DNA of 64,000 nucleotides from a virus (Duplodnaviria; Heunggongvirae; Uroviricota; Caudoviricetes): the IMG/VR virus record IMGVR_UViG_3300028832_000119, positions 8,924 through 72,923 of that record. One strand, 5' to 3'. Positions 1 to 47,979 of this stretch are shown piece after piece. The notes under the pieces were generated by a model. It made no database searches. It had not been told where the DNA came from and saw nothing but the letters and a program-made list of their open reading frames with translations. A program made the position numbers and the translations under genes. Within the stretch, counting starts at the first letter, position 1; every line of letters starts with the position of its first letter.

Positions 1-1914
1 TTGTGTAAGTTGCTATATCTAATTATTTTCTGCTTTCTATTTCTTAATGGATTTTTTAACCATTGACTTCATTTCAGTCAAACTCTTTGCCGTCATAATA
101 TCCATTAAAATATCTGGAGATACAATTCCTCCTTTTATAAATTCTGGAACAACTGCTCTTATTTGTTCCATCTCCTTCAATAATTCTGAAGAAGTAATTA
201 TATGTATATCGAAATCAGTAACTGTAAAATACTTAGGAAGAGCAGTAAAAATCTTTTGTAACTTATTACCTAATATTAATGTTCCTGTTAATCCATCTTT
301 ATAAACTATTTTAGCACAATTTAATGCATCTAATAAAATTTCTCTTGTTATTAAATCCATTTGGTAATGCCATTGCTTAGTAACTATAAATGAATTATTA
401 ATTCCAGTTTGAACATTAGTTACCGCATCTCTCTATTGGATTCCATTTAATCTTTCTCTGAATACTCCAGTAATTGAAGATGTAGTTTGTTCTACAGAGT
501 CAATAGCTAATTGAATAGCCTGGATAGCTTGTACTTTAACAGTATCATCAAATCCATTGAACATGGTATTTAAAGGAGCCTGTCCAGTATTTACTTGACC
601 TTCTTGAGAAGTATCAATTAATGCAAGTCCAGCTTTTTTATAAGCCTTCCATTTCATTAATCTTTCAGATAAATCATCACCAAGAATTGCAGGAAGAGTT
701 GGAAGATTTACAAAATCACCAACAGAACCAGATTGTGCTATTAAATTATCTCTGTAGAAATGTAAAAGGTCATAACGATCTTGAAGAACCATACATTTTT
801 GAACCATAGAGAAAGGTTCTCCTCCCCTATTATTAAACCATACTCCGTTTACACTAAGAGTAGCTTTATTAGGTTCATCTTTAGTTCTTACAACTTCTTT
901 ATCTAAACCTTTTAATACATAAATTTCTGAACCAATTCTTACTGTAGAATATCTCTATTCAACAAAGTTTTTATCAGTTTCTATCCATTCAACTTCATAT
1001 ACAGGAATTAAATCCTTATTATACCAATGTTGTTCTGGATATCCTGGAGTAACTTCCTCTCCAGCTCTTATTCCATCAGTTGCAGGAGTTCCATCCTAAT
1101 TGTAACTTCTGACAAAATAAGAACCAGTAGTTTCTAAAGCATCTGTCCACATTTCTTCAATCTTGGCCAGATCGTTTTTAGATAAATCTTTTCCATATTT
1201 ACTAAGAATCTAGTTTCTAGTTAGATAAGTTCTAACTACAACTCTATAAGATTCATTAATATATGGAGAATCATAGTTTAAGTCTGGAAACACATTAAGT
1301 GGATTTAAACATTCAATGTGTATATTTTTACCAGAAGAAGAAGGAAGAACTCTATAAAAAGTGAATCCAGAAACCAATAAATCTATAAATAACTACTTTA
1401 ATTTAGTTACTAGATCAACATTTCTAGACTAAATGATGTATTCAACAACATTTTGTCCAGCTATTTCGTATTCAGAAATAAAGTTTTCATTAATATCTTC
1501 TATCAATTTGTCCAACTATTCTTTTATATTTAGATCTTGCATATCCTTGCTTCCTAGTATTCGTAAGAGATTATTTTTGAGATTCATTTGTAGGAGATTT
1601 GCACATTCAGAAGCAATTTGTATTTGTCTTTCTCTAAATATATTATTAATAGTTACAGTATCTTTACAAGAAACCTTTGGTAGAATTGGAACATCTAAAT
1701 ATTCTCCTACTAAAGCATCAATATGTTTCCTAATTAAAGGAATAAACTCAACCGCTGTTGGCTACCCAATGCCAAAGTTTTCTTCTAAGTATTTAAACTA
1801 TTCCTTATCTCGTTTACAGTTATAATAATTATAAGCTTTCTTTATAGCTGTTTTTTCCTAAACAAGTTCGGCAATAGCTAAATCAGTTTTGCTAACAAGT
1901 TCTTCTTTCTTCAT
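1..1914 (-). CDS. large virion structural protein, portal-like; 5' partial (runs off window start); TAG-recoded
   Basis: One frame (ORF fragments 37..360, 433..807 plus the unlisted 808-1914 stretch) translates continuously with only in-frame TAG (positions 37, 433, 955, 1096, 1762, 1798, 1858) and no TAA/TGA. Candidate start Met at 1912-1914 (MKKEELVSKTDLAIAELV...). Lies downstream of TerL as expected for a portal gene. Confidence 0.45.
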
Positions 1915-2179
1915 CTTCTGGATAAATTTTAACTCCTCTAAAGAATTTTACTCTATGTAACTGTCTAGAGACGAGTTCTTGTTCAACAAATTTTAAAAAA
2001 TCTTCTGCAGTTAAATCTGCAGACATTTGTATTACGGGTTTATCTAGATTATCAAAGTCTAATTCAACTTTATAACCTGTCCCACCCTTCCCTAATTTAG
2101 TCACCTTAACATGTCCAGTGTATTTACATTTATATTTACACTCAATCATATTAACAATGGCTTCTTCCATTTCGTTCAT
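1883..2179 (-). CDS. small hypothetical protein
   Basis: ORF 1892..2179 ends at a TAG. If the TAG is read through, three more codons follow before TGA at 1883-1885. Its ATG overlaps the TGA stop of the upstream TerL gene (ATGA). Confidence 0.45.
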
Positions 2180-4449
2180 CTATATCTAGGATTACTTGTT
2201 ATATTAGATCCTGGAATATATCCAGTATTAATTTCTCCTTTAACTTCAAATTTATTTTGAGAAGGAATTATTCCATATCTCTTAACTCCTTTCTCATCAA
2301 TATAATAACCAATATCTCTAAGTCCTTGTCCAACAGGTTTATACTCTCTTGGAATAACATCATTTAATTCTTCATCTCCGACTTCCGCCATTTGACAGGC
2401 TGCCACCATATCAAATTTTCCTTTGTTTTCGTCAGTATAAAGATTTAACTATTCTAAGAATTCTATAAACCAAATATTGTGGCAATAATCTTCTACATAA
2501 GAAGCAACTAAGTCAGTACCATGTTCAATCATAGCTGTAGTAGCTGTAGTACCATACTAGTTATTATTTCTTCTTCTTTCATCTCCTCCATAACAAGCTC
2601 TTGGACGTCTCATAAAGAAATGTGCAAACTTATTATCACGAGCATAAGTTAAAACAGATAAACGTGTAGCCTCTATATTTGCCTTTGCTTGATAATACCA
2701 AAGCATTGCCATAGTTTGTTTATAAGCATCTCTAATATCATCAGGTCTATCAAGATAATAAGCTACATAGGTAGGCTCTTTCATTCCATGTACTCTTCTT
2801 TTTATCATAGTACAGAATTTAGATGGGTCTCTAGTCTAAGTAGAGGTTTCAGCCTAACCTATATCAATACCGTCTATTCCAGCTACATATAAATTCTAAA
2901 TTATAGGACTACCATCTTCCCATAAAGGATGTTCTAGTATCCTAACTGGCCCATTTGGATTAGGTTTAAATCTAACTCCAGTAATAAACTCTCGTTTTCT
3001 TTCAGGACCAGAATAAATAAATTCCATATATCCTCTCTAAATAGGTGGAGCCTATTTTTTAATTCTAATGGAAATTATTTGTTCAGCTATTTTAAGTTTG
3101 TTAAATTTATTAACACCTTCAGCTGCAAAGGCTTCTTCTGCTGTAAAACATTGCTCTGCTTTATGTTCAAGAAGTGTTTGTGGGTCAGTAATATCTGCTC
3201 TTCTCTACTCATAATGTTCTCTTTGTTTCTTCATCAAGTATTCTCCTCGACTTCCAACAAATTTAGAGTTATTCATTGATATATAAGCAGGAATAAAGTA
3301 AGCAGTTTCTACCCAATCCCCATCTTCTGTATAGTTGTGTTTAAAAGGGAGTACCTGGAACATTTTAGGATTATAATAAACCTTTCTAAGTCCTTCAAGG
3401 TTAGGTCCAGCATCTCCACCAGTTCCTACTGCCGCAATAATACCTATTTTATTACCACCAACAGTAACAAGTTCTTCTGCTTTTATAAAAGATCTTTCTA
3501 ATATAGGATTAGAACCAGACTCCTCAAGAAATAGGAAACCTACACGGTCACCACGCATTTTTCTATCTTTGTCTACAACTATACCTTCAATCTAAGACAT
3601 AAAACCTGTTTCAATTTTTTGTCCATTTACTACCTTATAGTGAGAGGCTCTTTTCTTAGTAGCAGTATTAATTACCTATCTAAGTTTAAGCATACCTCCC
3701 TAAGTATTATCATCAGTAAATGTTATTCCAGCATTAATTTTATCAAGAGTTTTCTTAACATAGTTATCATCAAATGCTGTTAACAAACATATACTATTTT
3801 TAAAACAGTTAAAAAAGTTATCAAATATAGAAGCATGTATCTCAGAAAATCCACAACCACGGTTTTTCATTACCGTCATATTCTTTCTTAATTTTCTACA
3901 TAATTCAAAATAATGAAAGAATTCATACTAATAAACAAAGAATCTTGGGAAGATAATAGAACGGCTATCACCTGCAACCTCTTGTTCAGTATTAGGTAAT
4001 TGATAATAGTTTAGGAAGTAATAGTTAAATCCTGTAATCGTATAGCCGTTAACTGTCATTCCTTCTTTACATCTTCTATATTCTTCGTTCCAGAAATCTC
4101 TATAAAGTTTTGAACCAGGATAGTATGAACAATACTATTCTGTATCTAAAAATGTTTCACGAGCTTCAGTAAACCATGAAGGATCAAAATCTAATCCTTC
4201 TGTTTCTGTTATAGGTTTATAACCAGTTAATTCGTAAGAAAGTCTTTTATCGAAATAAGGTACAGGGTCGCCTATTTTAACATCCCATTCACCTTCTCGA
4301 TGTTCTACAGTAGTCTCTGGTTTAATCTCTTCTATTTGCTGTTGAAGTTCTTCTTGTTTTTGTTTAACCTCTTCAACTATAGATTTGACTTCCTCAGGAA
4401 TTTCTGGCATTTTACGTGGGCGGCCTCTTTTCTTTTTGACCTCTTCCAT
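2176..4449 (-). CDS. terL: terminase large subunit (TAG-recoded, ~757 aa)
   Basis: Frame carrying ORFs 4135..4449, 3205..3558, 2557..2808 and 2176..2409 is continuous and broken only by TAG. Walker-A-like segment MKNRGCGFSE (3868-3840) resembles the lambda gpA KSARVGYS motif. N-terminal KRGRPRK motif. Ends at TGA 2176-2178 overlapping the next ATG. The ATG at 4447-4449 overlaps the TAA of the upstream gene (TAATG). Confidence 0.6.
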
Positions 4450-5024
4450 TAATCAGGCATAAATCCTTCAACAGCTCCACCACGTATTTGACTTTGCTCC
4501 ATAACTTCTTTCTTAACAAGAGATTCAATTTGTTTAAGAGTTTCAATCTAATCAGCAGCTTCTTTCATTGAAGCTTGAACATCTTTAACTTTAATAAGGT
4601 ATTTACCCTATTCATCTTGTTCTTGTAAGTCTACATTATGGAAATAGTCTATAATCTTATCAGTTACTTCCTAAGCAGCTTGAAGTAATCTAACATATCT
4701 ATTGGAATCCTATAGTGCTACATACTTTCTACAAGCGGCACGAAATTCTGGATTATTCCATTCTTCCTCAGTAATATGAGCGTCTTTTAGAGCAGCTTCA
4801 TGTCTTTCCTAATTACTATAATTAGCATAAGGTGATTTCCAATCAATAGCTAAATATATATAGGTAAATTCTCTATCAGCTCTAACATGGTCTAATCCTG
4901 AAGGATCCTCTTTACATTTATTTCTGGAAGGTTCTAATAATTTCTTAAATTCATCAATTAGAACTAAATCAGCAGTTACTAATTGAGCTCTTCCAGTTTT
5001 CTAATTATAATCCCATATATTCAT
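4449..5024 (-). CDS. hypothetical protein (possible small terminase subunit); 7 in-frame TAG
   Basis: ATG at 5022-5024 (MNIWDYN...) to TAA at 4449-4451. Coherent ~191-aa translation when TAG is read as sense. Position immediately upstream of terL. Confidence 0.4.
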
Positions 5025-5085
5025 ATTTACATTAACATTTATAAATTAATTAATATTTATTAGTGGTTCTTTTGAATCCAGCAGT

Positions 5086-5529
5086 TTTAGATGTAGCATC
5101 ATCAAATTTCTAGAAAATTCCTGTTCCCATATTTGGACGAGTCTAATCTAAACTTTTTACTCGCAAAGGAGTATACTCTCCAGGAAGTCTTCTTCTAATA
5201 TTTGTTATAGATGAAGCTGCTCTTTGCGGAGTTATATTACCTACCCATCTTCCTAAATATTTATCAGGATCATACATCATTACTTTCATAACATTAGCTC
5301 TTTCTTCTGGAGAAAGTTTATCAAGAATGTTATTAATATTTAATCTTGAGGCTTTTGTCATTTTATATGCATCAAATAATTCCTAATAATTTGGAAGATC
5401 TGGAACTTCAATTTGTGCAGAATAACCGTTACCCTATTTAATTGTCTTAGGTCCTGTTGCTATAGATTTTGGTTTAACTACTTTAGAAACAGTTTTTGCA
5501 GCTTTCTATGCTTTCATAGCTTTAACCAT
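5086..5529 (-). CDS. hypothetical virion protein (start uncertain; may extend to ~5778); in-frame TAGs
   Basis: Frame of ORF 5143..5361 continues through TAG 5143 and TAG 5110 to TAA 5086-5088. Coherent translation also upstream of 5361 through TAGs 5383, 5434, 5506. Confidence 0.3.
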
Positions 5530-5732
5530 TTGCAAAGCTTCCCAAGCATTTTTAGCTTTTACAGGTCCAGGAGCAGTTCCAGTATATAAATAGGGATTGT
5601 TAGAAGTTTTACTTTTTTCTTCAATAAAATTATAAAGATCTGTTAAAGGAAAGTTTGAATAATTTCCTGCTCCTTGAGGAATAGGATTATAATAATATTC
5701 TCCGTTTATACCTCTACCATTTATTCCTCCCC

Positions 5733-6398
5733 TTATAGTACCTTCTTGATAAAAGGGATTCCGTTTAAACTACCTCCCTTACGATGCATTTTAAATTGAG
5801 CAATAACAGAACCTTCTTGGTGTTTCTTTATTTTAGAACCACATTTATTTTTTCCAATTCCTTTATTATCTTTTAAAGCTTGGTCTGTTTGGGTTTTAGC
5901 TTTTGGTCCAGAATTTTCTTGTCCTTTCTGAATATCTTTTCCAACTACTATTTGTCCTTTTCTCCATTTATCTTCTCTCTTTTTCTTTTCTTCCTCAGCT
6001 TTTTTTCTATTTTTATTAGCTTCAGCAAGTTGCATCATTTTATTTCCATATTGCATTTTAAATTTGGCAACTGCAGAACCTCCACAATCTTTTTTTACTT
6101 GACCGCCATCTTCTTTCTTCTTGCAGCCACAACCAACAGAACCGCCTTTCTTATAATAAACTACTTCTTCATCTTCAGCACATTGATTCTTCAAAGATTT
6201 GAAGTAATTTAATTTAGCACCATGAGCGGCTTTTTGAGCTTGTGCTTTAGAAGCTTGGGCCTTTTCTTTTTGGTATTCAGCATAATATTTTTTTACTTCA
6301 TCCTAATTCTTTGGGCTATATTTCTTAGCTTCTAGCCATTTCTTAAAATTTGCTAATTCCTTCTATTCTTCTGGAGAAAGTTTTTTGTTATTATCCAT
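5733..6398 (-). CDS. Lys/Glu-rich hypothetical protein, ~221 aa, 2 in-frame TAG
   Basis: ATG 6396-6398 (MDNNKKLSPEE-TAG-KELANFKK...) continues into ORF 5733..6194 and ends at TAA 5733-5735. Confidence 0.45.
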
Positions 6399-6400
6399 AA

Positions 6401-6619
6401 TTAATCGACTAAGATTAAATCTTTTGTAGAGAATACTGCTTCTTGTAAAAAGCCGTTCTCTGTAAACCATCTTACCTTTACTCCTTTAAGTAAGGCATTT
6501 TTATCGTCACTTCTAATTATAGAGCGTTCAACTCTATATACCAACATAATAGGTTTATTTGGTATGTCCTGGCGAAGGGTTACCTTCTAGCCAGGAACAA
6601 AATAAATCTTTTCATCCAT
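6401..6619 (-). CDS. small hypothetical protein (72 aa, one in-frame TAG)
   Basis: ATG 6617-6619 (MDEKIYFVPG-TAG-KVTLRQ...) to TAA 6401-6403. Not in the ORF track because of the TAG. Confidence 0.35.
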
Positions 6620-6621
6620 CA

Positions 6622-7206
6622 TTATTTATTCTTATTAAATCTTTCTGTTAAACCTTCATTTACAACTGCAAGAACTCTATTTTCACATACAAGGTGTAAG
6701 TTCTGCTTATAGAAAGGAACTGGAACTGCTGAGTTCTTAGTAAAGAAAATAGTATCATCAGGTTGACACCATTTACATTCAGGACCAACTTCCTGAATAA
6801 CTCCTACCTTAATAAATTGTTCTTCTTCCTCAATTTGTCCATTATCAGTGTTTTTATACTGAGGAGCCATACCTCCCATATCAAGAATAAGTCCAGATTT
6901 AGAATCACGAACAATTCTTTGGAAAGGATTGTCTTCAAATTGTTTTACAAGAACATAATTACCAATAGGCATGATTTCGATGTTAGCCATATTTTCATTT
7001 ACTTTCTTAGCAAATTCTTCTACATTAGTAAATTGTTTGTCAATTTTTTCTGTAAACTTATCAACTTCTTCATTGAAGTTTTTTACATTGCGTTGTTCAA
7101 TAACGTCATCTGCTGTAGTTCCATCTAAAGTCATAACTCTACTTGTACTTTCACCTGCTACATGCATAGCAATTTTTTCATTCTCGCTTAAAATTGGATG
7201 TTCCAT
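6622..7206 (-). CDS. hypothetical protein (194 aa, no TAG)
   Basis: Intact ORF ending at TAA. In-frame TGA lies 5 codons upstream of the Met. Confidence 0.55.
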   Translation of the reverse strand: MEHPILSENEKIAMHVAGESTSRVMTLDGTTADDVIEQRNVKNFNEEVDKFTEKIDKQFTNVEEFAKKVNENMANIEIMPIGNYVLVKQFEDNPFQRIVRDSKSGLILDMGGMAPQYKNTDNGQIEEEEQFIKVGVIQEVGPECKWCQPDDTIFFTKNSAVPVPFYKQNLHLVCENRVLAVVNEGLTERFNKNK

Positions 7207-7207
7207 A

Positions 7208-7480
7208 TTACCATTTATTCATTAAACATTTCTCGGATTCAACGCTTACTTTACTTTTTATTATACAACCGCATTGATCACATATATATGAGCCCATGTA
7301 TTTTATTCTATGCTCACACTTATTACAAATATCTAGTCTTCTTCTTTGTTCATCTGAAGTGTAACCAGTTAAGTTCCTCCAGTTACCTACTATTATATTT
7401 CGTAATTTTAGAAAGAGATTCATAATTTTAAAGATTTCACTTTGTTTCACAAAGTAAAAATTACCACTTACCAGCAACAC
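7208..7480 (-). CDS. Cys-rich zinc-ribbon protein
   Basis: ORF with CNKCEH...CDQCGC motifs. Confidence 0.45.
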   Translation of the reverse strand: MLLVSGNFYFVKQSEIFKIMNLFLKLRNIIVGNWRNLTGYTSDEQRRRLDICNKCEHRIKYMGSYICDQCGCIIKSKVSVESEKCLMNKW

Positions 7481-7656
7481 AGTGGTTACTAAGATTTCTC
7501 ATCTTTATTAATATATGACAACCACAACCTCTGATATATCCTGCTTTTGCGGAAGTTGAAACTTCATTAGTGTCAGGATTTAACCAGAGTTTGGGGTTGC
7601 AAAGACCTAAAGCAGGACTATATATTGGACATTTTTTACATATCTCTTTACGTTCT

Positions 7657-8568
7657 TCAATACTCTATTCGTGCATACTTAGCCTTTTGTTTTTCAAGTT
7701 TGTTTTGTTTAGCATAATGCTTAAGCATCTTTTCCACATCATCTTTTAAATAAGAACAGTGGTATAACGTATTCTTTCCAGAGTGGTCATAGTGATTTAA
7801 AATCAAATCTTTAATAACAAATTCTGGATTTAGTTTTTGAAGCATCCAAGCATAGGTGGATAATTGCAACTGATAATGATTAAAGTTACATTCATCTAAA
7901 TGTCCTAAAGGATACTTCATTTTATCAGCACAACGATTTGCACTATTATAAAATCCTTTTAAGTCTATTTTAGCGTTAGTCTTATGGTCTATGATATAAA
8001 TATCATTTCCATTTTTTACTATAAGGTCTATCTGTCCTGCTAGGTGTAAATCAATTTTAGGATTGTCATAATATATTAAGTATTCAGGATACACTCCATA
8101 ATCTAAGTTTAAATCAGTATAGTCTTTTTTACATACAAACTTTCCACCAATTCCAAACTTTTTTAAAGTAATATTAGAACCTGCATCATAGAATGAATGT
8201 TCTAATTGAGCATGAATCTTAGTTCCTCTTTCACAAGCAATTCTATTTGTTTCAGTCCATTCATCGAGTATATCTTGTTGAACCTTATTTAAATCCTCTT
8301 GAGTTATATTATATACTTCTAAAAAATCTTTAGGTATTTTATGATTCTTCCAAATACCTCCTTTTTCTTTCTTCCAGTCTTCTGGATTCATTATTCTTTC
8401 TAATGCTTTATAAGCACTAACGAATTCCTTATCAAATTCTTTTCCATACTTTTCAATCAAAGTAGTTACTGAAATATATTTGATAGTAGGATCATTCAAA
8501 TTTCCATAATAATGGTCTGCTTCTCTAAATCCCACAGAACCATTAATTTTATCATACTGCATTTCCAT
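7657..8568 (-). CDS. PD-(D/E)XK superfamily nuclease (RecB/Cas4/YqaJ-like exonuclease)
   Basis: 303-aa intact ORF. Motifs GTKIHAQLEH, IDLIV...IIDHKT (D...D/ExK) and QLQLSTYAWM (QxxxY) are typical of the RecB-family nuclease fold. Confidence 0.55.
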   Translation of the reverse strand: MEMQYDKINGSVGFREADHYYGNLNDPTIKYISVTTLIEKYGKEFDKEFVSAYKALERIMNPEDWKKEKGGIWKNHKIPKDFLEVYNITQEDLNKVQQDILDEWTETNRIACERGTKIHAQLEHSFYDAGSNITLKKFGIGGKFVCKKDYTDLNLDYGVYPEYLIYYDNPKIDLHLAGQIDLIVKNGNDIYIIDHKTNAKIDLKGFYNSANRCADKMKYPLGHLDECNFNHYQLQLSTYAWMLQKLNPEFVIKDLILNHYDHSGKNTLYHCSYLKDDVEKMLKHYAKQNKLEKQKAKYARIEY

Positions 8569-8587
8569 TAAACATATAAATTTTTCA

Positions 8588-9199
8588 TTACTTAGAATTA
8601 TCTTTTATATACTATAAAATTCCTTCAACGTGAAGTCTTACAATAGCATGAAAGCCTTCATCACTGAGTAAATAATCTACATCTTTTTTATTATCCTAAA
8701 AAAAGTTTTCCGTTAGTACCGCAGGACAATTAGTATTTTTAAGAACATATAAATGAGCTTCTTTATCTGGATCTCCATCCGAAAAATCAGTTCTCATTTT
8801 AGCGTCCTTTAGATTTGTTTTTGCTGCATTATATAAACAGGTTGCAAGCTCATCAGCTTTAGTTTTACCAACTGATGTAAAAACTTCCCAACCTGTTCCC
8901 TCATGCCATTTACCGTCAGAACCGGAGGCATTTACATGTATAGAAACATAAATACAGTTTTTGTACTGTTTTACTAATTCATTAACAACTTTACATCTTA
9001 AACATAATTCTTTTGATTGAGATACTCCTAAGTCATCATCTTCTACATCAATAAAGACTTTATATCCCATATCTTTAAGAATCGCTGCAGCAGCTTTACA
9101 AACTTCTCTAGAATATTTATATTCTCTAAATTTTCCATCTGGAGAACCTTTTCCTAAGATGCTTTTCTAATGAGCTGTGCCAAAAACAACTGTAATCAT
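8588..9199 (-). CDS. N-acetylmuramoyl-L-alanine amidase (Amidase_3) endolysin; 3 in-frame TAG
   Basis: Core ORF 8696..9070 has SIHVNA and NCPAVLTENFF motifs. Reading through TAG 8696 gives the canonical Amidase_3 C-terminus (DNKKDVDYLLSDEGFHAIVRLHVEGIL-TAG-YIKDNSK) ending at TAA 8588. N-terminus MITVVFGTAH-TAG-KSILGKGSPDGK starts at ATG 9197-9199, which overlaps the upstream TGA (ATGA). Confidence 0.65.
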
Positions 9200-9870
9200 T
9201 TCTTATTGTTATAATCTAATAGTAAAGCTAACTTCTAAATATGTGGTAAAACTTTTCCTGTATAAATGTATCCATATTTCTTAGGAGCTTTATACAACAA
9301 AACAATCATTCCTATTTGTGAATCAGTACCTTCAATAGTAAAGAAAGTAACAGATTCTGCATCACTTGCTTTTACAAGTCGATATAATTTTGGAAGGCTT
9401 GTTTTCATTTCCTCAATATCTAGAAATTTCACATAACTTTGATTATGGATTTTAAATAATTCATCTGCATAATAAATATAATCTAATTTATTCCACTACT
9501 ATCTTAAAGTAGGAACATCTACTGATCTTGGAGCTTCCGTGAGACAAGATAAATACAAATATTTATAACCTTGCAAACTTTGAGTATTATTATGATAATT
9601 CAAAAGTAATACATCAAAAGCATCCTTATCTATTTCTGCTATTGCTTGGATTTGACGGTTTATTTCAACGGCGGTTTCTTTAGAGTACTATTCTGCCTTT
9701 TTATTGGCAATAATTTCCTATTCGAACTTTTGTTGAATCTGATGACCAGTTTCTCCAATTATCTGAGAATATAAAATCCATCCAAATAGAAAAATAATAA
9801 TTACATTTCTAGTTTCAGGCTTAATTTTATTTAATATTCCCCACAAATACTTAATCCAATTTAAATTCAT
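9196..9870 (-). CDS. membrane protein directly upstream of endolysin (holin-like?); 5 in-frame TAG
   Basis: ATG 9868-9870 (MNLNWIKYLWGILNKIKPETRNVIIIFLFGWILYSQII = N-terminal TM helix). Same frame continues through TAGs into ORF 9235..9432 and ends at TGA 9196-9198. Confidence 0.4.
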
Positions 9871-9999
9871 CTTTTTGTTTGTTATAAAATAAAAATATTT
9901 GTATTTATCCAAATGTATTAGTATATTTAGTAATGTCAAAATAATTAATATTCGTTTCGTTAAAGAAATTAAATTTAAGCTTAAAAAATATTTTAGATT

Positions 10000-11361
10000 A
10001 TGAACAACGTTGTTAAAAATTTTAAAAAAGGACACAAAATTCGAATCAAGGAGTCTCAAAAAGGTTCTTTTACTAAATGGTGTGGAGGGGATGTCACAAA
10101 TGAATGTATTTAGAGGGGAAAGAATAGTCCTAACCCTAAGATAAGAAAAAAGGCAACTTTTGCTGCAAATGCTAGAAAGTGGAAACATTAGGAAGGAGGA
10201 AGTATTGAAAGATTTAAGAATCCTTCTGGACCTATCACTGCTAAATAGAAAGCAAGAGCCAACTTAACTAAAAGAAAAACTCCTGATTGGGATAATTTAG
10301 ATAGAGGTTATAGATATTTGACTTAGGATATGAAACTTCCTCATGATTAGGCTATTGCATTAATGGGTAATGTTGTTGAAGAAAGTCAAGGAAATTATAA
10401 GGCTGCTCAAAAGAATGGAAGAGGTAGAGGACTCATTCAATGGGATGGAAGACCTGCTCCTGAAGGTAGATATGGACAATGGGGAAGTATTTGGGCTTCT
10501 GTTGCCAAGAAAGCTAATGTTTACGATCCAGATACTGATACAGTTAAAAATTATTGGGCCCCTTGGAATGGGTTAAAAGGAGAATAGGTTAGACAAAAGT
10601 TTATATCTGCTCCTTTAAAATAGAAAGCTAGAATATATGCTGAATCATACCTTCGTCCTGGAAAACCTAGAATTGCTGATAGACAATTAAGTGCTATGCA
10701 ATTAGATTCTATTTATAATCCTAAAATAAAAAATATTGTAGTACAATAGAAAGTGGGAGGTAAAATAGATTTTCTTAGTTTAGGAGGAAATTTCTCTAAT
10801 ATTCTAAAAAATGTAGGTTCTTGGGCATAGGATAATAAAGATTTAATTAATGGAGTTGGTGGAGCCCTTGTTTCTGGAATAGGTTTATTTAAAAATTCTA
10901 GTGCTTCTGCAGATTTTCGTGATTCAGATAATAAGAGAATCCAAGAAGGCTATAATGCAATAGTTAATGATCTTGGCGATGGAATTGATGAAGAAGTAAA
11001 CTCTCTTATTGCACAAATGAAAGAACAAAATCCAGATTAGAATTTTGGAGAGATTGATTATTAGATGTTACGATAGAAAGTGGAACAATAGCGTAGATAG
11101 AAAAATATGTAGAAAGCTGATATGTATAAATAGTAGGAACTTGAAAAACAAGGAAAAGTTTTAAGTTCTATGGAAGAATCTAATACATCTTTATTAGGAG
11201 GACTTCTAAGTAAATTAGGAGGAATTGGTACTGATGTTTTAAATAGTAAATCTGCTTCTGCAACTAAAGGAACAGCTACAGGTTCTACTGTTGGAACTGG
11301 AGAAACGACTACTTATGTTGGAAGTAATGGAAGTTTAAAATTAAATAACATGTTAGCATAA
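10000..11361 (+). CDS. SLT-domain lytic transglycosylase (virion or lysis peptidoglycan hydrolase); TAG-recoded; C-terminal extent uncertain
   Basis: Frame from ATG 10000 includes ORFs 10363..10587 and 11170..11361 with only TAG interruptions. SLT motif EESQGNYKAAQKNGRGRGLIQW (E-S...G-L-I-Q). TAG density rises sharply at 11040-11170, so the true end could be earlier. Confidence 0.45.
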
Positions 11362-11371
11362 CACAAAGAAA

Positions 11372-11405
11372 CCCCGATAGGATTAATTTCCTACCGGGGT
11401 TTTTA
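11372..11405 (+). terminator. rho-independent terminator-like hairpin
   Basis: aaccccgatagg...cctaccgggg stem followed by TTTTT. Confidence 0.4.
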
Positions 11406-11574
11406 CTCAAGTACAAGTATGAAAAAGAATTATCTATCAATATCGATTGATAGTTTATTAAGTTCATCTTTCCAATGAAGGTAATAACCATTATCTAACA
11501 TATTATGGTCTATAGATAATTGTTCTATTGCCTTAATCTCGTCTATATTTGCTTGATATAAATCTCTAAAAATT

Positions 11575-11994
11575 TCAGTTCTCATAATACAATGTCATTA
11601 AATATTCTTCTGTTATTTCTTTAATTCCAGTTTTAGTAGTTGGGTTCCATATATGATTCTTAAAGAGTTCTCTCATTGTAGGACGAGGTTCATCTTTTTT
11701 AATAAAGCATACTCTTCTAGTATCATCTATGTTCGAACGAACTATTACTTTTGTTACATCTTTCATATAATCCTCTAGCTCATTGCTAGGGGATTTTTCT
11801 TTTTTAATAGGATTATCTATAATTTCTATATCATCTATAGATAATTTCATCCTTTTTAATTTCTTCTCCAGATTTGGAGTAGTGATTATTGTTCCTTTAT
11901 ATTTAAATGTTGTTTCCATAGTTGTCCCACTAGGATTCGAACCCAGGCTAAAGGATTTAGAGTCCCCTGTACTGACCATTATACTATAGGACAA
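11575..11994 (-). CDS. hypothetical protein (139 aa)
   Basis: Intact ORF, standard code. Confidence 0.45.
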   Translation of the reverse strand: MSYSIMVSTGDSKSFSLGSNPSGTTMETTFKYKGTIITTPNLEKKLKRMKLSIDDIEIIDNPIKKEKSPSNELEDYMKDVTKVIVRSNIDDTRRVCFIKKDEPRPTMRELFKNHIWNPTTKTGIKEITEEYLMTLYYEN

Positions 11995-12005
11995 TAAAGG
12001 CTGCT

Positions 12006-12371
12006 TTAAGCTAGCAGTCTTTTTAAAGCTTTAACTTTACGAGCAGCAATCTCTTTAGTTTTAGCTTTAACTTTGTCTATAGCCTTCTTATAATCTGGAG
12101 ACTTGTACAAAGCTTCAATATCCATTATTCCCTCTTTTTCTGCAAGTTCACTAAGAACTTCTGAGAATAATTCATCATCTACTAGCTTTAACCAATTTTC
12201 AAATTCTTTCTTATCTTCATTGTCTAAAAGTTGTACCTTAATGGTTAAGGTATTCCCTTCTTTTGTCGAATCTATTACAAAATGAGTATCATTGTCTTGA
12301 TATTCTTGATGTAATTCGTCCAGTCCCATCAGCTCCGCTACGAGAGCTTTTAATATTTCTTCTTTTTTCAT
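12006..12371 (-). CDS. acidic hypothetical protein (121 aa)
   Basis: Intact ORF. Confidence 0.5.
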   Translation of the reverse strand: MKKEEILKALVAELMGLDELHQEYQDNDTHFVIDSTKEGNTLTIKVQLLDNEDKKEFENWLKLVDDELFSEVLSELAEKEGIMDIEALYKSPDYKKAIDKVKAKTKEIAARKVKALKRLLA

Positions 12372-12419
12372 ATCACTACTAATATATTGGTTATTTATAA
12401 AAACAAAATATAAAAAATG

Positions 12420-13112
12420 TTAAATTATTATTTCGTCTGTATATTGATTCTTTTTAAGTTCTTTTACTTCTTTAGTTAAAGCTTGTATTTGTGCTTTCAA
12501 TTCAGAAATATCCTCCTCGTTATTTTCTATTCTTTGTTCGTGGTTAAGTAATACTTTAACAATTCCTTGATGATATTTTTCTAATGCAAATTCCATTTGT
12601 TGTTTACCAGATGGAAGTTTTGTAGTATTGATAATATTTTTATTAGCCAATTCTCTAGTAGCTTTTACTAAAGTAGAATATGGCATATTTATTAATTCTG
12701 CCAATTCCATCTTAGAATATTTTATTATTCCTTTTCCTGTTTCTTTGTCTTTCATATATTGTTGAGAAGAGGCAAGGAGAGCTCTTTGAGTAAAGGTAAT
12801 ATTTCTATCTTCTAAAAATTCATAAGAAAAAGGTTCGAATTGTTTTAATTTATTAAACTTGTAAATTTGTTTTCTTCCTTCTTTTTCTATTTCTATATAC
12901 TCTTTATCCACTAAATTTTGAATGCATTTTCTCACAGTTTTCTCACAGCATCCAACTCTATCTGCAATAGATTTCTGTGAAGGAAAAGCTTTCATAGTAT
13001 CTTTATTCATATAGGATCTTATTCCAAGATAAATTAATTGATCCTGGGGTGTTAAATCATTTATTCCTTCAGTCGAAGGTAACTCAATATGTCTTTTTGT
13101 TTCATTTTCCAT
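12420..13112 (-). CDS. double winged-helix DNA-binding protein, replication-initiator/regulator-like
   Basis: 230 aa with two HTH-like segments (FPSQKSIADRVGCCEKTVRKCIQNLV; YSKMELAELINMPYSTLVKATRELA) and a C-terminal coiled coil. Adjacent to iterons. Confidence 0.5.
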   Translation of the reverse strand: MENETKRHIELPSTEGINDLTPQDQLIYLGIRSYMNKDTMKAFPSQKSIADRVGCCEKTVRKCIQNLVDKEYIEIEKEGRKQIYKFNKLKQFEPFSYEFLEDRNITFTQRALLASSQQYMKDKETGKGIIKYSKMELAELINMPYSTLVKATRELANKNIINTTKLPSGKQQMEFALEKYHQGIVKVLLNHEQRIENNEEDISELKAQIQALTKEVKELKKNQYTDEIII

Positions 13113-13170
13113 AGTATAAATATATTAGTTCCTATATAATTCCCAAATAATTCCTATGTTAATTTTTGTT

Positions 13171-13256
13171 AAAAATCTTAAATGCCGCAATTAAAATCTT
13201 AAATTCCGTTTTTAAAATCTTAAATGCCGTAATCAAAATCTTAAGTGCCGTCTAAC
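13171..13256. repeat. four direct ~21-bp iterons AAAATCTTAAATGCCG(N5)
   Basis: aaaaatcttaaatgccgcaatt / aaaatcttaaattccgttttt / aaaatcttaaatgccgtaatc / aaaatcttaagtgccgtctaac, spaced ~21 bp apart. Confidence 0.55.
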
Positions 13257-13299
13257 TATACTTATTACTATACTTAATGAAACTATACTTAGGGCCGTC

Positions 13300-13440
13300 C
13301 GGCTTTTATTTTTTGGATAGAGTTTAACACTTGTATAAAAATTTTTTCTAAAATTTTATTTTTTGAAATTTTTTTTATTTTTCTAAAATTTTTCTGAAAA
13401 TTTTTTTGGAATTTTTAAAATTTTTTTTAGTTGTGGGAGA
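13300..13440. promoter_or_regulatory. AT-rich DNA-unwinding-element-like tract (putative origin)
   Basis: Near-pure A/T with repeated AAAATTTT units, directly next to the iterons. Confidence 0.4.
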
Positions 13441-13535
13441 GAGGGTGCACTACCGCTCGACTCCCCCAGGGGTGAGCGCTGGGAAAATGAAAAACTTAAG
13501 CCACTGTCTAAAGCATTATACAAATTTGAACAAAT

Positions 13536-13847
13536 TTGTTTATCCCTATGAAACAAGAAAGGATTAATTCAATCTGGGCTTCGATAGAAGCTCAGAGTGA
13601 CGTACAGGCTACGAAACAGCCTTGCTTCCCAACACCTTACACACTGATGATGGTTCATCGTCCAGCAGCTGGAGGAAAGAAGGGAATTGTTCCTTGTGTT
13701 GAACTCAAGACTCTTGCAGGAGGCTATCGGATTCGTCGTTGTGACGAAATTCTGACACCAGCTCCTAATGAGCCTATTGACCTCTATCTCAAGAGATTTC
13801 AATGGGAGCTTGACCGTAAGAACATTTTAGGTGAAACTATTCTTTAA
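13536..13847 (+). CDS. hypothetical protein (GC-richer, host-like codon usage)
   Basis: 103-aa ORF with ~50% GC in a ~30% GC background. Followed by a hairpin terminator. Confidence 0.5.
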   Translation: MFIPMKQERINSIWASIEAQSDVQATKQPCFPTPYTLMMVHRPAAGGKKGIVPCVELKTLAGGYRIRRCDEILTPAPNEPIDLYLKRFQWELDRKNILGETIL

Positions 13848-13863
13848 CATTATACAGAGTTGT

Positions 13864-13900
13864 GCCTCCTCACTCTTCCCAAAGTAGGAGGCATTATTTT
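13864..13900 (+). terminator. rho-independent terminator
   Basis: gcctcct...aggaggc stem then ATTATTTT. Confidence 0.4.
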
Positions 13901-13915
13901 AAATAACTTAACAAT

Positions 13916-15073: not shown

Positions 15074-15147
15074 TCCTCTTCCCTTTAACTGGCTGGCTCA
15101 CCTTCGGGTGGGCTGGCCTTTTATTAACATTTTAAAGTTTGTAACAT

Positions 15148-45654: not shown

Positions 45655-47979
45655 ATGAATAAATTAGTTTCTAAAAACCCTATTTAGAGGTTTAAAGAGG
45701 GTAGAAAAATTGAAAAGTTTGAAACCGGAGGTTTTACATATAATGGAAAACATTATGTTGGTGGAGGAACTAAAATTGTTAATTGGCTAAAAAAATAGAT
45801 GATGCCGTTTGGAGCAATTCCTGTAAAATAGCAATCTTAGAAAACAAAAAGAACTGTTTATCCTTTATATAATTCAACTACTGGAGAAACAACTTATTAT
45901 AATTCTTTAGAAGAAAGGGAAGCTGCTAAACAAAATATAATTAATTCAAAAAATAATATTACAATAAATAATTCTGGAGTAATTCCTGGAGTTAATGATA
46001 TTGATACTCAAATGAGAATTAATCAATTACCTTCTGCAAAATTAAAAAAGCCTCTTAAGACTCAAGAATAGTGGAATACAGAGTTTCAAAATAACTTTAT
46101 TAATAATTTAACCCAGGATTAGAGATAGTATTTAGATTCTCAAGGAGTTAATTTTAATGATGTTAAAGCGGTACAAAAATTTATAGGTACCAATGATGAT
46201 GGAAAATGGGGAAGAAATTCTATAAATGCTTGGAATAAATTTATTTCTACAATTCCTTAGAACTTTTCTTAGACAAGAGAAGAACAATCTATGATGCAAG
46301 GAACAACTCCATATGTAGAAACCCCAATAACTCCTACTAAATATACTACAAATAATACTTATATGGATAAAACTCAATTTAGAGACAATATCAGAGGATT
46401 GGGTATTTAGAGTAATGCAGATTTAATTAATTGGATGCATTAGACTGGAGCTGAAGGATATGATTTTGGAGGAAATCAATGGGCTAAACAATTTAGAAAC
46501 GACGTTGATAGAGTTCTTGGAGGAGACTATTCTGATGCTAATATTAGAAAAACATTTAATACTGCTGGAAATTGGGGTAGAGGTTTTTTAGGTGGAGGAG
46601 ATTTAAGTGATTTCCAAAATGCAATGGCAACTAATGCTGGAGTATGGAATGGAATAGCTGATGCTGGAAAGTAGCCTACAATTCAATTTGATCGCTCAGC
46701 TACAAGAGAATGGTTAAGAAATAATGCTGGAGGCTCAGCATATGCATTTACTGGTGATTAGAGAAAAGCAGTAAGAAATATATTAAATGGCTAGGGAACA
46801 GACCAAGATAAAGAATTAATTAAAGGAAATGCTGATTTAGTAAAAGCATTAACAGGTTATTTTAAAACAGGAGGAAATATGATATTACCATCAAGAAATA
46901 TTGTTGAAAGATTTAAACAAGGAAAGAAAATAGAATATTTTTAGAATGGAGGAGTAAAAAGATTTAAAGTAAGTTATAAAACTAGAACTGGAGGAGATTG
47001 GCTTGAAAAATAGTTTAATACTTAGGAAGAAGTAAATGCTTTTAGAAAAAGACTTAGCCATGTTCCAGTTTTTAAAGTTGATGATATGAAAGGAGCTTCT
47101 AGGGGTTCTGTAGTAAAAGCTGATAGAACTAAAGGAAAAGATGCTGCTACAACTGCCTATGATAGATAGGAAGCTGAAAAAAATAACATGATGTCTTTTA
47201 AACAAGCTTATTCTCAAGCTAGAAAATCTGGAAATAAATATTTTGCTTATAAAGGAAAAGTATATAAATCTGATTTAGAAAATGGAAAAGATAATATGAC
47301 TGAAATGCAATAGCTTTATGGAACTCATTTAGGTTATTCATCCAATCCAAAATTACAAAATAAACAATCAAGAACAGCTAGAGAATAGTATAGAAAAGAT
47401 ACTAAAGCTACTAATACTAATAGAAATGCTAATTTCAAGGGAGAAACAAATTCTCAAGCAAATGCTAGGGCTGACAAAAATTTTGATAGAAAATTGGGAG
47501 TAAGTACATTAGCTCCAGATTTTATTGATGCAGTATCTCCTCAAACAGCTATTGGGAACTTTATGAATATGGCAGGCTCTGCTATAACCGGAGAACATTT
47601 TACTCCAAAAATTTATTAGAATGGATTTAATATCCCAGGATATGCTTCAGATTTAACTTAGAGTAAATATAAAGATTTAGCATTTAGAGGATTAGACGCT
47701 TATTTATCTTTGGGAGCTCCTGGTGCTAGAGTAAATATGACTCCTGGAGGTACTAATGTAACTGAAGGTGCTACAATATTACCTAATGGAACAAGAGAAT
47801 TTTCTAAATGGCATTTAAGATCTTTAGGACCTAATGCTACTAGACCTATGGAAGGAGTATTAAGAAGTTCTAGAGGCACTACTTATTATATTGATAATGG
47901 ACAATTTATGAAAAATTTAACTATTCCAGCATTAGTATCTAATCCAATTATTCAATAGATATAGAATTTAGAAAAATAA
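45655..47979 (+). CDS. large TAG-recoded protein (~775 aa, ~30 in-frame TAG) with a peptidoglycan-binding domain; probable virion/tail-associated protein
   Basis: ATG 45655 after an in-frame TAA. Single frame to TAA 47977-47979 with only TAG interruptions (e.g. caa TAG ctt tat gga at 47311). PG_binding_1-like motif VKAVQKFIGTNDDGKWGRNSINAWNKF. The TAA overlaps the next ATG (TAATG). Confidence 0.5.

What the first reader, a model, noticed from the sequence alone, without database searches (positions are those of the whole stretch)
1..11361. Amber (TAG) stop codon reassigned to a sense codon across the whole late/structural-lysis module
No long ORFs exist on the minus strand here. Yet a single frame per gene gives coherent, recognisable proteins if TAG is read as an amino acid.

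- The Amidase_3 endolysin is rebuilt across three TAGs into a full-length protein with a canonical C-terminus.
- The terminase large subunit spans 2176-4449 across TAGs, with its Walker-A-like motif intact.
- Genuine stops are TGA/TAA and form overlapping ATGA/TAATG junctions (2176-2179, 4447-4451, 9196-9199), so TGA/TAA are real terminators while TAG is not.

Genes at 11575-13112 and most plus-strand early genes contain no TAG, so the recoding is module-specific. This fits a temporally regulated code switch, with TAG most plausibly read as Gln as in translation table 15.
Basis: partly seen in the sequence, partly recalled or inferred. Interest (0 to 1): 0.8.

Follow-up and report, generated by a model that had tools for sequence, protein, structure and literature searches.

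The report
Amber-recoded late genes, crAss-like phage
This is part of a large crAss-like gut phage that reads the TAG stop codon as glutamine in its packaging, virion and lysis genes, using its own suppressor tRNA; the reading is correct, but this behaviour is already well described for such phages.

Summary
If TAG is read as sense, minus-strand coverage of 1-11400 by long ORFs rises from 0.32 to 0.86. Full-length portal, large terminase, Amidase_3 endolysin and other proteins appear, and each is conserved past every TAG. Codon-level alignments with four related recoded phage contigs put the window's TAGs opposite CAA/CAG (32%) or TAG (32%), the same profile as its own Gln codons, so TAG = Gln. 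TAA and TGA remain stops, and the three overlap junctions are confirmed.

Corrections:
- Recoding is gene by gene, not module-wide. The exonuclease and GroES-like genes inside the module are TAG-free here and in relatives.
- The interval includes a plus-strand lysozyme-domain gene (10000-11361, 17 TAGs).
- A 774-aa gene with 24 TAGs (45655-47979) sits inside the otherwise TAG-free plus-strand block.

TAG-to-Gln recoding of late genes with phage suppressor tRNAs is published for crAss-like phages (Yutin 2021, Borges 2021/22, Peters 2022, the 2025 Zeta-group paper). This is a new member of a known kind. The temporal switch remains inferred.

The parts
1..1914 (-). Portal protein gene. Its C-terminal part is cut off by the window start. 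13 in-frame TAGs.
   Evidence: phrog_6547 portal, E 5e-41. 77-91% identical to orthologs in L001/L002/L004/L005 across the TAGs.
1883..2179 (-). Small conserved protein (98 aa) with 1 TAG. Its ATG overlaps the TerL stop (ATGA).
   Evidence: Orthologs are 59-90% identical.
2176..4449 (-). Terminase large subunit, 757 aa, 13 in-frame TAGs, ends in TGA.
   Evidence: phrog_6681, E 1.8e-64 over residues 52-696. 2,806 homologs. TAG columns are Gln-rich, and three are invariant Gln. Codon-level alignment.
4449..5024 (-). 191-aa conserved protein upstream of TerL, 6 TAGs. Its TAA overlaps the TerL ATG (TAATG).
   Evidence: phrog_16390. Junction. Orthologs are 70-94% identical.
5050..5529 (-). 159-aa basic protein with 5 TAGs against 2 CAA. 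No ortholog in the four fetched relatives.
5733..6470 (-). 245-aa Lys/Gly-rich protein with 2 TAGs. The true start may be the internal Met near 6398.
6622..7206 (-). GroES-like co-chaperonin, 194 aa, TAG-free. Part of a TAG-free island inside the module.
   Evidence: phrog_3188, E 1.1e-6. The similarly sized genes at the same position in L001/L002/L004 are also TAG-free; their orthology is inferred from position and size.
7657..8568 (-). PD-(D/E)XK-type exonuclease, 303 aa, TAG-free.
   Evidence: phrog_298, E 1.1e-22. The genes at the same position in L002 and L004 are TAG-free.
8588..9199 (-). Amidase_3 endolysin, 203 aa, 3 in-frame TAGs (codons 11, 168, 194), ends in TAA.
   Evidence: PF01520, E 1.2e-18 over residues 9-194. 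phrog_435. Aligned with relatives to the same C-terminus; the TAG in TENFFqDNK is shared by three genomes and the last TAG is CAA in L001.
9196..9870 (-). 224-aa protein with an N-terminal hydrophobic segment and 5 TAGs. Its TGA overlaps the endolysin ATG (ATGA). Possibly a lysis-associated membrane protein (inferred).
   Evidence: Orthologs are 56-68% identical. No Pfam or PHROG hit.
10000..11361 (+). Plus-strand 453-aa protein with a phage tail lysozyme domain, 17 in-frame TAGs, ends in TAA.
   Evidence: PF18013, E 1.5e-7, above the cutoff. Its N-terminal ~65 aa is conserved in the opposite-strand TAG-rich genes at the same position in relatives.
11369..11402 (.). 14-bp-stem hairpin followed by a T run, between the convergent lysozyme gene and the tRNA-containing unit. 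Probably a terminator.
11575..11919 (-). Small TAG-free ORF (114 aa) whose ATG lies 1 nt after the end ARAGORN gives for the suppressor tRNA (11921). The family is linked to tRNA(CUA) in relatives.
11921..11993 (-). Suppressor tRNA with anticodon CUA, which reads UAG. It has a normal cloverleaf and a U1:A72 pair.
   Evidence: ARAGORN. Rfam tRNA, 62.6 bits. Conserved upstream of the late module in L001, L002 and L004. 82% identical to CUA-anticodon tRNAs that RefSeq annotates as tRNA-Gln in crAss-like cr7_1 and cr124_1.
12006..13112 (-). Two TAG-free genes upstream of the tRNA on the same strand: a 121-aa conserved protein (12006-12371) and a replication-initiation/DnaD-like HTH protein (12420-13112).
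   Evidence: PF13730 and PF21984. phrog_8102 and phrog_270, replication initiation. The L001 ortholog of the 121-aa gene is 64% identical.
45655..47979 (+). Isolated, heavily recoded gene (774 aa, 24 TAGs) inside the otherwise TAG-free plus-strand block. Function unknown.
   Evidence: Conserved family with 37 hits. The ortholog in distant relative L006 has 14 TAGs among nearly TAG-free neighbours.

Best explanation
The window is a fragment of a large crAss-like gut phage, probably of the Zeta-like group.

**Shown**
- In its packaging, virion and lysis genes, UAG is decoded as glutamine. UAA and UGA terminate.
- The phage carries its own amber-suppressor tRNA (anticodon CUA, 11921-11993, minus strand).
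- The tRNA sits in a TAG-free unit with a replication-initiator gene. A hairpin and an opposite-strand gene separate this unit from the recoded genes.
- The replication-type plus-strand block is almost free of TAG and readable with the standard code.

**Inferred, following the published model**
- After infection, TAG-free genes are translated by the host's standard-code machinery.
- The suppressor tRNA is transcribed and is charged with Gln, presumably by the host GlnRS.
- Once it is abundant enough to outcompete RF1, TAG-containing mRNAs for portal, terminase, endolysin, lysozyme and others yield full-length proteins.
- This adds a translational lock that keeps assembly and lysis proteins off until late.
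- The lock acts gene by gene, not strictly by module.
For: - **Coding density.** Minus-strand coverage rises from 0.32 to 0.86 only when TAG is sense.
- **Homology across TAGs.** Family matches span the TAGs.
- **Gln identity.** TerL TAG columns are Gln-rich, with three invariant Gln columns. At codon level, 10 of 13 TerL TAGs are CAA in the 91%-identical relative L005. The substitution profile of TAG matches that of CAA/CAG across 9 genes and 4 genomes.
- **Relatives.** They are recoded in the same genes, and all TerL genes end in TGA.
- **Suppressor tRNA.** It is found by ARAGORN and Rfam and is conserved in relatives. Its nearest annotated relatives are CUA tRNAs typed as Gln by RefSeq.
- **Standard-code block.** The TAG-free ORFs (nearly all in the plus-strand block) total 7,139 codons with 1 TAG. 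The plus block tiles under table 11 except for one gene. It contains an SNF2 helicase, a ParB-like protein and an HNH endonuclease.
- **Lysis genes.** They are at the high end of TAG preference: endolysin 3 of 5 Gln positions, lysozyme 17 of 31. Borges et al. report the same bias.
- **Literature.** The same pattern and model appear in PMC7886860, bioRxiv 10.1101/2021.08.26.457843 and PMC12386605. PMC9523058 gives proteomic proof of code 15 in crAss-like phages.
Against: - No expression or proteomic data exist for this phage, so the timing, the charging enzyme and the competition with RF1 are all inferred.
- The suppressor tRNA lies in what looks like a replication (early or middle) unit. Suppression could therefore start early, and the timing of late genes might be set mainly by transcription.
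- The partition is imperfect. There are TAG-free genes inside the late module and a TAG-rich gene in the early block.
- No release factor or glutaminyl-tRNA synthetase gene was found among the large ORFs of the window. Only 64 kb of a genome of perhaps 180 kb is visible.
- About a third of the aligned TAG positions face residues other than Gln or TAG (Glu 9%, Lys 4% and others). That is expected for variable sites but is not proof of exclusive Gln insertion.
- The host is unknown.
Confidence: 0.85

Rival explanations
1. The main role of recoding is not timing. Instead the suppressor tRNA damages host gene expression, including defence genes, by read-through of host TAG stops. Alternatively it acts as a barrier that keeps the late genes from being expressed outside a cell holding the phage's own tRNA. 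Under this view the TAGs in phage genes are a tolerated or protective consequence.
For: - Yutin 2021 (PMC7886860) and the Zeta paper (PMC12386605) propose this.
- The window also carries a second suppressor-type tRNA (UCA, 48991-49064) although no TGA is read through. That fits a role beyond decoding the phage's own genes.
- The tRNA(CUA) lies in a probable early or replication unit.
- A phage tmRNA is present. It could deal with ribosomes stalled after read-through (inference).
Against: - The strong, conserved restriction of TAG to packaging, virion and lysis genes, and its near absence from about 7,100 codons of other genes, is not predicted by host damage alone.
- The same genes are TAG-free or TAG-rich across relatives.
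- The two roles are not mutually exclusive.
Confidence: 0.2
2. TAG is decoded as an amino acid other than glutamine, for example pyrrolysine (as ARAGORN labels the tRNA), Glu, Lys, Tyr, Leu or Trp.
For: - ARAGORN prints 'tRNA-Pyl' for any CUA anticodon.
- 9% of aligned TAG positions face Glu codons.
Against: - Gln codons are by far the commonest partner of TAG, and TAG's substitution profile mirrors that of CAA/CAG. Three TerL TAG columns are invariant Gln.
- The tRNA has an ordinary cloverleaf with GG in the D-loop, a TTCGAAT T-loop and a 5-bp anticodon stem (sequence). From established knowledge, tRNA-Pyl has a different architecture.
- A close relative of the tRNA is typed Gln by RefSeq.
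- No Pyl genes were seen among the window ORFs scanned.
Confidence: 0.03
3. The late genes are decayed pseudogenes, or the TAGs are assembly or sequencing errors, so there is no recoding.
For: Under table 11 the genes are fragmented.
Against: - Only TAG interrupts the frames, never TAA or TGA.
- Sequence conservation continues past each TAG at 56-94% identity.
- Independent assemblies of relatives show the same pattern.
- An independent ENA contig is 100% identical over 13.6 kb, including the gene with 24 TAGs.
- A matching suppressor tRNA is present.
Confidence: 0.01
4. The host itself uses a TAG-sense code, so the phage simply matches its host and there is no switch.
For: The host is not identified from the window.
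Against: - About 7,100 codons of non-late genes contain a single TAG, and some of those ORFs appear to end in TAG (7 of 86). That is unexpected if TAG were an ordinary Gln codon throughout infection.
- The phage carries its own suppressor.
- The literature reports standard-code hosts for such phages (Borges preprint, PMC12386605).
Confidence: 0.02

Closest known systems
TAG-to-Gln (genetic code 15) recoding of late genes in crAss-like phages (Yutin et al. 2021, PMC7886860; Borges et al., bioRxiv 10.1101/2021.08.26.457843; proteomic validation by Peters et al. 2022, PMC9523058)
   Same: - In-frame TAGs in TerL, portal, lysis and other late genes.
- TAG aligns with Gln.
- A phage-encoded tRNA(CUA) is present.
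- Replication genes are standard-code compatible.
- The genome has low GC and TAA is the preferred stop.
- The amidase and other lysis genes are among the most TAG-biased.
   Different: - In this lineage TerL is only 25-28% identical to classified Crassvirales.
- Recoding here is patchier than 'a single alternatively coded unit'. There is a conserved TAG-free island (exonuclease, GroES-like) inside the module and an isolated gene with 24 TAGs in the early block.
Zeta crAss-like phages (Yutin 2021; PMC12386605, e.g. phage Lera)
   Same: - Relatives lie on contigs of 170-183 kb.
- GC is about 30-33%.
- There are dozens of tRNAs in the forward replication block.
- Both CTA and TCA suppressor tRNAs are present, with only one stop codon actually reassigned.
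- In the standard-code block, rare TAGs are followed closely by another stop.
   Different: - Lera uses opal (TGA to Trp) and keeps an apparently idle CTA suppressor. This window is the mirror case: amber is used and the TCA tRNA is idle within the 64 kb seen.
- Membership of the Zeta clade was not tested phylogenetically here.
'Code change module' of Jade phages (Borges et al.): suppressor tRNA, aaRS and release factor, in standard code, upstream of the lysis cassette
   Same: A standard-code unit holding the suppressor tRNA lies about 2 kb upstream of the lysis genes, on the same strand as the late module.
   Different: - No aaRS or release factor was found in the window.
- The tRNA's partners here are a replication-initiator gene and two small proteins of unknown function.
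- A terminator-like hairpin and an opposite-strand gene separate the unit from the lysis genes.
Theta (HDV-like) ribozyme-associated suppressor tRNAs of gut phages (Kienbeck et al. 2024, PMC10879173)
   Same: An amber-suppressor tRNA in a recoded gut phage.
   Different: There is no ribozyme downstream. A conserved protein-coding ORF starts 1-2 nt after the tRNA, and Rfam finds no HDV-like element there.
E. coli supE-type amber suppressors (tRNA-Gln with a CUA anticodon); from established knowledge
   Same: A CUA anticodon on a tRNA with a weak or mismatched 1:72 pair (U1:A72 here, U1·U72 in relatives). That pair is a classical GlnRS identity feature.
   Different: The tRNA is phage-encoded and only about 63% identical to the phage's own tRNA-Gln(UUG). 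Charging was not tested.

Membership tests
Code-15 (TAG to Gln) recoded phage | Conserved genes are interrupted by in-frame TAG only, with homology continuing downstream of each TAG. | tested here: met
Code-15 (TAG to Gln) recoded phage | TAG positions correspond to glutamine in homologs. | tested here: met
   At codon level, 10 of 13 TerL TAGs are CAA in L005. Opposite TAG are 32% Gln codons and 32% TAG, matching the profile of CAA/CAG.
Code-15 (TAG to Gln) recoded phage | TAA and TGA are retained as terminators. | tested here: met
   All recoded genes end in TAA or TGA, with overlap junctions. No TGA read-through.
Code-15 (TAG to Gln) recoded phage | A suppressor tRNA with a CUA anticodon is present. 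| tested here: met
   11921-11993 on the minus strand. Conserved in relatives.
Code-15 (TAG to Gln) recoded phage | Gln is found at TAG positions in the expressed protein. | not testable with these tools
   This needs proteomics, as was done for other crAss-like phages in PMC9523058.
Crassvirales / crAss-like phages | TerL and portal are homologous to those of crAss-like phages. | tested here: met
   By tblastn, TerL hits Crassvirales terminases at 25-28% identity, E down to 8e-40, over 66-80% of the query. The crAss-specificity of the portal and TerL PHROG families was not checked.
Crassvirales / crAss-like phages | Signature structural and transcription genes are present (MCP, IHF, giant RNAP with a DxDxD motif). 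| not tested
   These genes would lie outside the 64-kb window.
Zeta crAss-like group | Genome of 145-192 kb with many tRNAs, including suppressors. | tested here: inconclusive
   The window holds 34 or more tRNA genes. Relatives sit on contigs of 170-183 kb. The size of this phage's own genome is not visible.
Zeta crAss-like group | Phylogenetic placement of TerL inside the Zeta clade. | not tested
   No Zeta reference sequences were available in the searchable annotated collections. The best annotated-collection hits are unclassified gut phages at 45-48% identity.
tRNA-Pyl (ARAGORN's label for the CUA tRNA) | The atypical tRNA-Pyl architecture (6-bp anticodon stem, very short variable loop, small D-loop lacking G18G19, no canonical T-loop). 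These features are recalled from established knowledge. | tested here: not met
   The sequence shows a 5-bp anticodon stem, the D-loop AATGGTCA containing GG, and the T-loop TTCGAAT. It scores 62.6 bits against the general tRNA model.
Theta-ribozyme-associated suppressor tRNA | An HDV-like ribozyme with its cleavage site within about 5 nt of the tRNA 3' end. | tested here: not met
   A conserved ORF starts 1-2 nt after the tRNA. No HDV-like match in Rfam at E up to 1. Whether Rfam 15 holds a theta-specific model is unknown.
Code-change module (suppressor tRNA + aaRS + release factor) | An aaRS and a release factor are encoded next to the suppressor tRNA. | tested here: not met
   The neighbours are a replication initiator and small proteins of unknown function. 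The large ORFs of the window show no aaRS or RF domains. The rest of the genome is unseen.

The most novel reading that the evidence does not exclude
The suppressor tRNA may be part of a conserved, undescribed code-switch unit.
- In the window and most relatives examined, a tRNA (the CUA suppressor itself, or a second tRNA placed after it) directly abuts the start codon of a conserved small TAG-free protein.
- 3' maturation of the tRNA would then create an almost leaderless mRNA for that protein.
- This would couple suppressor production to expression of a factor that helps the switch, for example by acting on RF1, GlnRS or the ribosome.
- The phage tmRNA would then deal with ribosomes stalled after read-through.

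Together with the gene-by-gene pattern of TAG use, this would make the code switch an active, multi-component programme rather than a lone tRNA.
Probability: 0.12. Interest if true: 0.55.

Novelty: new member of a known kind. Interest (0 to 1): 0.25.

Why it matters
**Annotation.** With table 11 this phage's terminase, portal and lysins are shredded into fragments. With table 15, or a mixed-code caller, they are complete.

**Biology.** The window adds one more well-resolved example to the published picture of crAss-like phages that lock late genes behind an amber codon. It contributes some useful details:
- a conserved TAG-free island inside the late module;
- a conserved, heavily recoded gene embedded in the standard-code block, which would be a natural test case for translational as opposed to transcriptional timing;
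- the position of the suppressor tRNA in a replication-type unit.

It does not change what is known about the phenomenon.

Tried and rejected
- **TGA or TAA as the reassigned codon.** Reading TGA as sense does not improve the late module (0.32). No two long segments join across a TGA. The gains seen with TAA as sense occur on both strands and in all regions, so they are non-specific in this AT-rich DNA.
- **Circularity of the protein-database alignment.** The homologs were themselves translated with TAG as Q, so I went to their DNA.
- **Near-identical annotated phage.** None found. Megablast of 1-12000 against 50,697 phage records gave only a 138-bp hit.
- **Solved-structure match for TerL, to check the Walker-A claim.** None by sequence.
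- **Similarity of tRNA(CUA) to the window's own tRNAs.** Not discriminating: 62-65% to many isotypes.
- **HDV-like or theta ribozyme next to the suppressor.** Not found.
- **Function of the 774-aa recoded gene and of the small ORF after the tRNA.** No Pfam or PHROG family.
- **Exact-match scan for the tmRNA 3' domain in viral contigs.** Nothing found. A looser pattern found one related contig.
- **Small plus-strand ORFs with 2-5 TAGs** (for example 29983-30435, 54800-55585, and 50435-50845 on the minus strand). They overlap tRNA genes and were treated as spurious. 17080-17646 competes with a TAG-free ORF in another frame and is left undecided.


Full report
**1. What is in the sequence**

Under the standard bacterial code the minus strand of 1-11361 holds mostly short ORFs. 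I measured coverage of 1-11400 (minus strand) by stop-to-stop ORFs of at least 150 codons under four codes:

| Codon read as sense | Coverage |
|---|---|
| none (table 11) | 0.32 |
| TAG | 0.86 |
| TGA | 0.32 |
| TAA | 0.41 |

The TAA gain is non-specific, because similar gains appear on both strands and in every region of this AT-rich DNA.

Reading TAG through gives a compact gene set with overlapping junctions:

| Coordinates (minus strand) | Product | In-frame TAGs |
|---|---|---|
| 1-1914 | portal, cut by the window edge | 13 |
| 1883-2179 | small conserved protein | 1 |
| 2176-4449 | large terminase (TerL) | 13 |
| 4449-5024 | conserved 191-aa protein | 6 |
| 5050-5529 | basic 159-aa protein | 5 |
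| 5733-6470 | Lys/Gly-rich 245-aa protein | 2 |
| 6622-7206 | GroES-like | 0 |
| 7657-8568 | PD-(D/E)XK exonuclease | 0 |
| 8588-9199 | Amidase_3 endolysin | 3 |
| 9196-9870 | membrane-anchored protein | 5 |

Profile matches run across the TAGs:
- TerL matches phrog_6681 over residues 52-696 of 757.
- The portal matches phrog_6547.
- The endolysin matches phrog_435, and Pfam Amidase_3 over residues 9-194 of 203.

**2. Which amino acid**

A search with TAG written as X found 2,806 TerL homologs. In an alignment of 33 of them, the 13 TAG columns are Gln-rich and three are invariant Gln. Those database proteins could themselves have been translated with table 15, so I fetched the DNA of four homologs at 55-91% identity. 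None translates to its database protein under table 11, so all are recoded too.

The codon-level results are as follows.
- Against the closest relative (L005), the window's 13 TerL TAGs face CAA 10 times, GAA twice and TAG once.
- Over nine genes and four genomes, the window's TAGs face Gln codons in 32% of cases, TAG in 32% and Glu in 9% (n=171).
- That is the same profile as the window's own CAA/CAG (45% Gln, 19% TAG).
- The window's Glu and Lys codons face TAG only 2% of the time.

The endolysin aligns with its relatives to the same C-terminus. The TAG inside the TENFF·DNK motif is shared by three genomes, and the last TAG is CAA in L001. TAG is a Gln codon here, as in table 15.

**3.

ARAGORN and Rfam both find a tRNA with anticodon CUA at 11921-11993 on the minus strand (62.6 bits).
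- It has an ordinary cloverleaf (GG in the D-loop, a TTCGAAT T-loop, a 5-bp anticodon stem), so ARAGORN's automatic 'Pyl' label does not fit.
- It has a U1:A72 pair, and its relatives have U1·U72. From established knowledge, a weak 1:72 pair is a classical GlnRS identity feature.
- Its nearest annotated relatives (82% identity) are CUA-anticodon tRNAs that RefSeq types as tRNA-Gln in the crAss-like phages cr7_1 and cr124_1.
- The tRNA is conserved, on the same strand as the late module and upstream of it, in L001, L002 and L004.
- In the window it lies in a TAG-free run of minus-strand genes: a replication-initiation/DnaD-like protein (12420-13112), a conserved 121-aa protein, the tRNA, and a small ORF.
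- A 14-bp hairpin at 11369-11402 closes this run.

**4. How module-specific is it?**

To avoid circularity I used only ORFs of at least 120 aa bounded by TAA/TGA, so TAG was free to occur. Thirty-five ORFs (7,139 codons) hold a single TAG, and 14 ORFs (4,467 codons) hold 100. Under table 11 the plus-strand block from 13.5 to 64 kb tiles into 86 ORFs. Their stops are TAA 57, TGA 22 and TAG 7. The only large gap is at 45452-47709. That block contains an SNF2-type helicase, a ParB-like protein, an HNH endonuclease, an SPFH protein, many small ORFs and most of the tRNAs. This fits a replication or early block, though the timing is inferred.

Three refinements are needed.
- The exonuclease and GroES-like genes inside the 'late' module are TAG-free. 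The genes at the same positions in L001, L002 and L004 are TAG-free too.
- The stretch 10000-11361 of the finding is a plus-strand gene with 17 TAGs and a phage tail lysozyme domain (PF18013).
- A 774-aa gene with 24 TAGs (45655-47979) lies among TAG-free neighbours. It belongs to a conserved family, and its ortholog in a distant relative has 14 TAGs among nearly TAG-free neighbours.

Recoding is therefore gene by gene, and the pattern is conserved.

**5. Lineage and prior knowledge**

- TerL is 25-28% identical to classified Crassvirales terminases and 45-48% identical to two unannotated gut phage contigs.
- Relatives sit on contigs of 170-183 kb.
- GC is about 30-33%.
- These features fit the Zeta crAss-like group (145-192 kb, many tRNAs, amber or opal recoding; PMC7886860, PMC12386605). 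I could not test clade membership.

The phenomenon is published.
- Yutin et al. [quoted passage not shown]
- Borges et al. proposed the temporal code-switch model and found lysis genes the most recoded.
- Peters et al. 2022 verified code 15 by metaproteomics.
- The 2025 Zeta paper describes genomes with both CTA and TCA suppressor tRNAs, of which only one is used. This window is the mirror case: its tRNA(UCA) at 48991-49064 has no detectable TGA read-through.

**6. Mechanism, and what is shown versus inferred**

Shown:
- TAG is a sense (Gln) codon in a defined and conserved set of genes.
- TAA and TGA are stops.
- A dedicated, conserved tRNA(CUA) is present.
- The other genes are standard-code compatible.

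Inferred:
- the tRNA is charged by host GlnRS;
- it competes with RF1;
- it makes late and lysis proteins translatable only after it has accumulated.

One caution applies. The tRNA sits in a replication-type unit, so suppression may begin early, and transcription may still be the main timer. An anti-host role for suppression (Yutin 2021; the Zeta paper) is a live, non-exclusive alternative.

**7. Verdict**

What they describe is a new example of a known kind, so interest is low to moderate. Side observations are listed separately. The main ones are the abutment of the tRNA and a small ORF, a phage tmRNA with a conserved tag ending, and an origin-like repeat region. They are the only points that may go beyond the published picture.

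Noticed in passing
window 11575-11993 (minus strand); L002 191-537; L004 119-455; L009-L011, L015, L016, L018: The ATG of a conserved small TAG-free ORF (ME.TFKYK..NLEKKLK..DDIEII) starts 1-2 nt after the 3' end of the suppressor tRNA(CUA). In two relatives a second tRNA sits between them. 3' processing of the tRNA would leave a nearly leaderless mRNA. The protein has no Pfam or PHROG family. In L001 an HNH-like ORF sits there instead, and in L019 and L020 no tRNA lies within 1.5 kb.
   Followed up: partly
window 36974-37347 (+); L021 768-1125: A phage-encoded tmRNA lies inside the tRNA array (Rfam RF00023: 67 bits, gathering score 47). ARAGORN did not call it. The candidate tag frame is GNKAKTVTIGSRSFRMAA followed by TAA. 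A related tmRNA (79.7 bits) on another viral contig has a diverged tag, GKNNVSFAITSYRVAA followed by TGA (read by eye from the alignment), with the same R-x-A-A ending. The crAss-like recoding papers I read do not mention tmRNA. A link to ribosome rescue after stop-codon read-through is only a thought.
   Followed up: partly
window 48991-49064 (+): A second suppressor-type tRNA (anticodon UCA, 60.3 bits, normal length, so not a SeC tRNA) sits next to an HNH endonuclease gene (49172-49759). No in-frame TGA read-through is detectable anywhere in the window. This mirrors phage Lera, which uses opal and carries an idle amber suppressor (PMC12386605).
   Followed up: partly
window 13113-13915: This is the divergent intergenic region between the minus-strand replication-initiator gene and the plus-strand block. 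It holds 21-bp direct repeats (TTAAAATCTTAAATGCCGT-like) at 13169-13251 (three overlapping 41-nt copies spaced 21 nt, about four units) and A/T tracts at 13359-13433. The GC skew changes sign nearby, with the cumulative minimum around 10-14 kb. It is a candidate replication origin with iterons.
   Followed up: partly
window 45655-47979 (+), 10000-11361 (+), 5733-6470 (-): Recoded proteins share short basic motifs. Examples are RFKEGRKIEKFETGG and RFKQGKKIEYFqNGG within the 774-aa protein, and NFKKGHKIRIK at the N-terminus of the lysozyme-domain protein. The N-terminal ~65 aa of the lysozyme-domain protein recurs on otherwise different TAG-rich proteins in relatives. This may be a shared targeting or packaging module; the function is unknown.
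   Followed up: partly
window 14546-15088, 21750-22100, 62386-62586, 37660-37836 (+): Several standard-code ORFs end in TAG and are followed 2-8 codons later by TAA or TGA, so amber suppression would extend them only slightly. The Zeta paper reports the same pattern. I did not test whether it exceeds chance in this AT-rich DNA.
   Followed up: no
window 28996-29106, 29512-29573, 30003-30081, 30186-30251, 33128-33196 (+): Rfam and ARAGORN disagree on several tRNA-like elements. Rfam finds a 111-nt tRNA match (possibly with an intron or insertion) and weak matches of 62-69 nt. ARAGORN reports a 'tRNA-???' with a two-base anticodon.
   Followed up: no
window 37655-51292: This stretch is 100% identical to an ENA metagenome contig (ERZ27256849, k141_4180643, 42,244 bp). 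The same phage has therefore been assembled independently, or the window derives from that assembly.
   Followed up: yes
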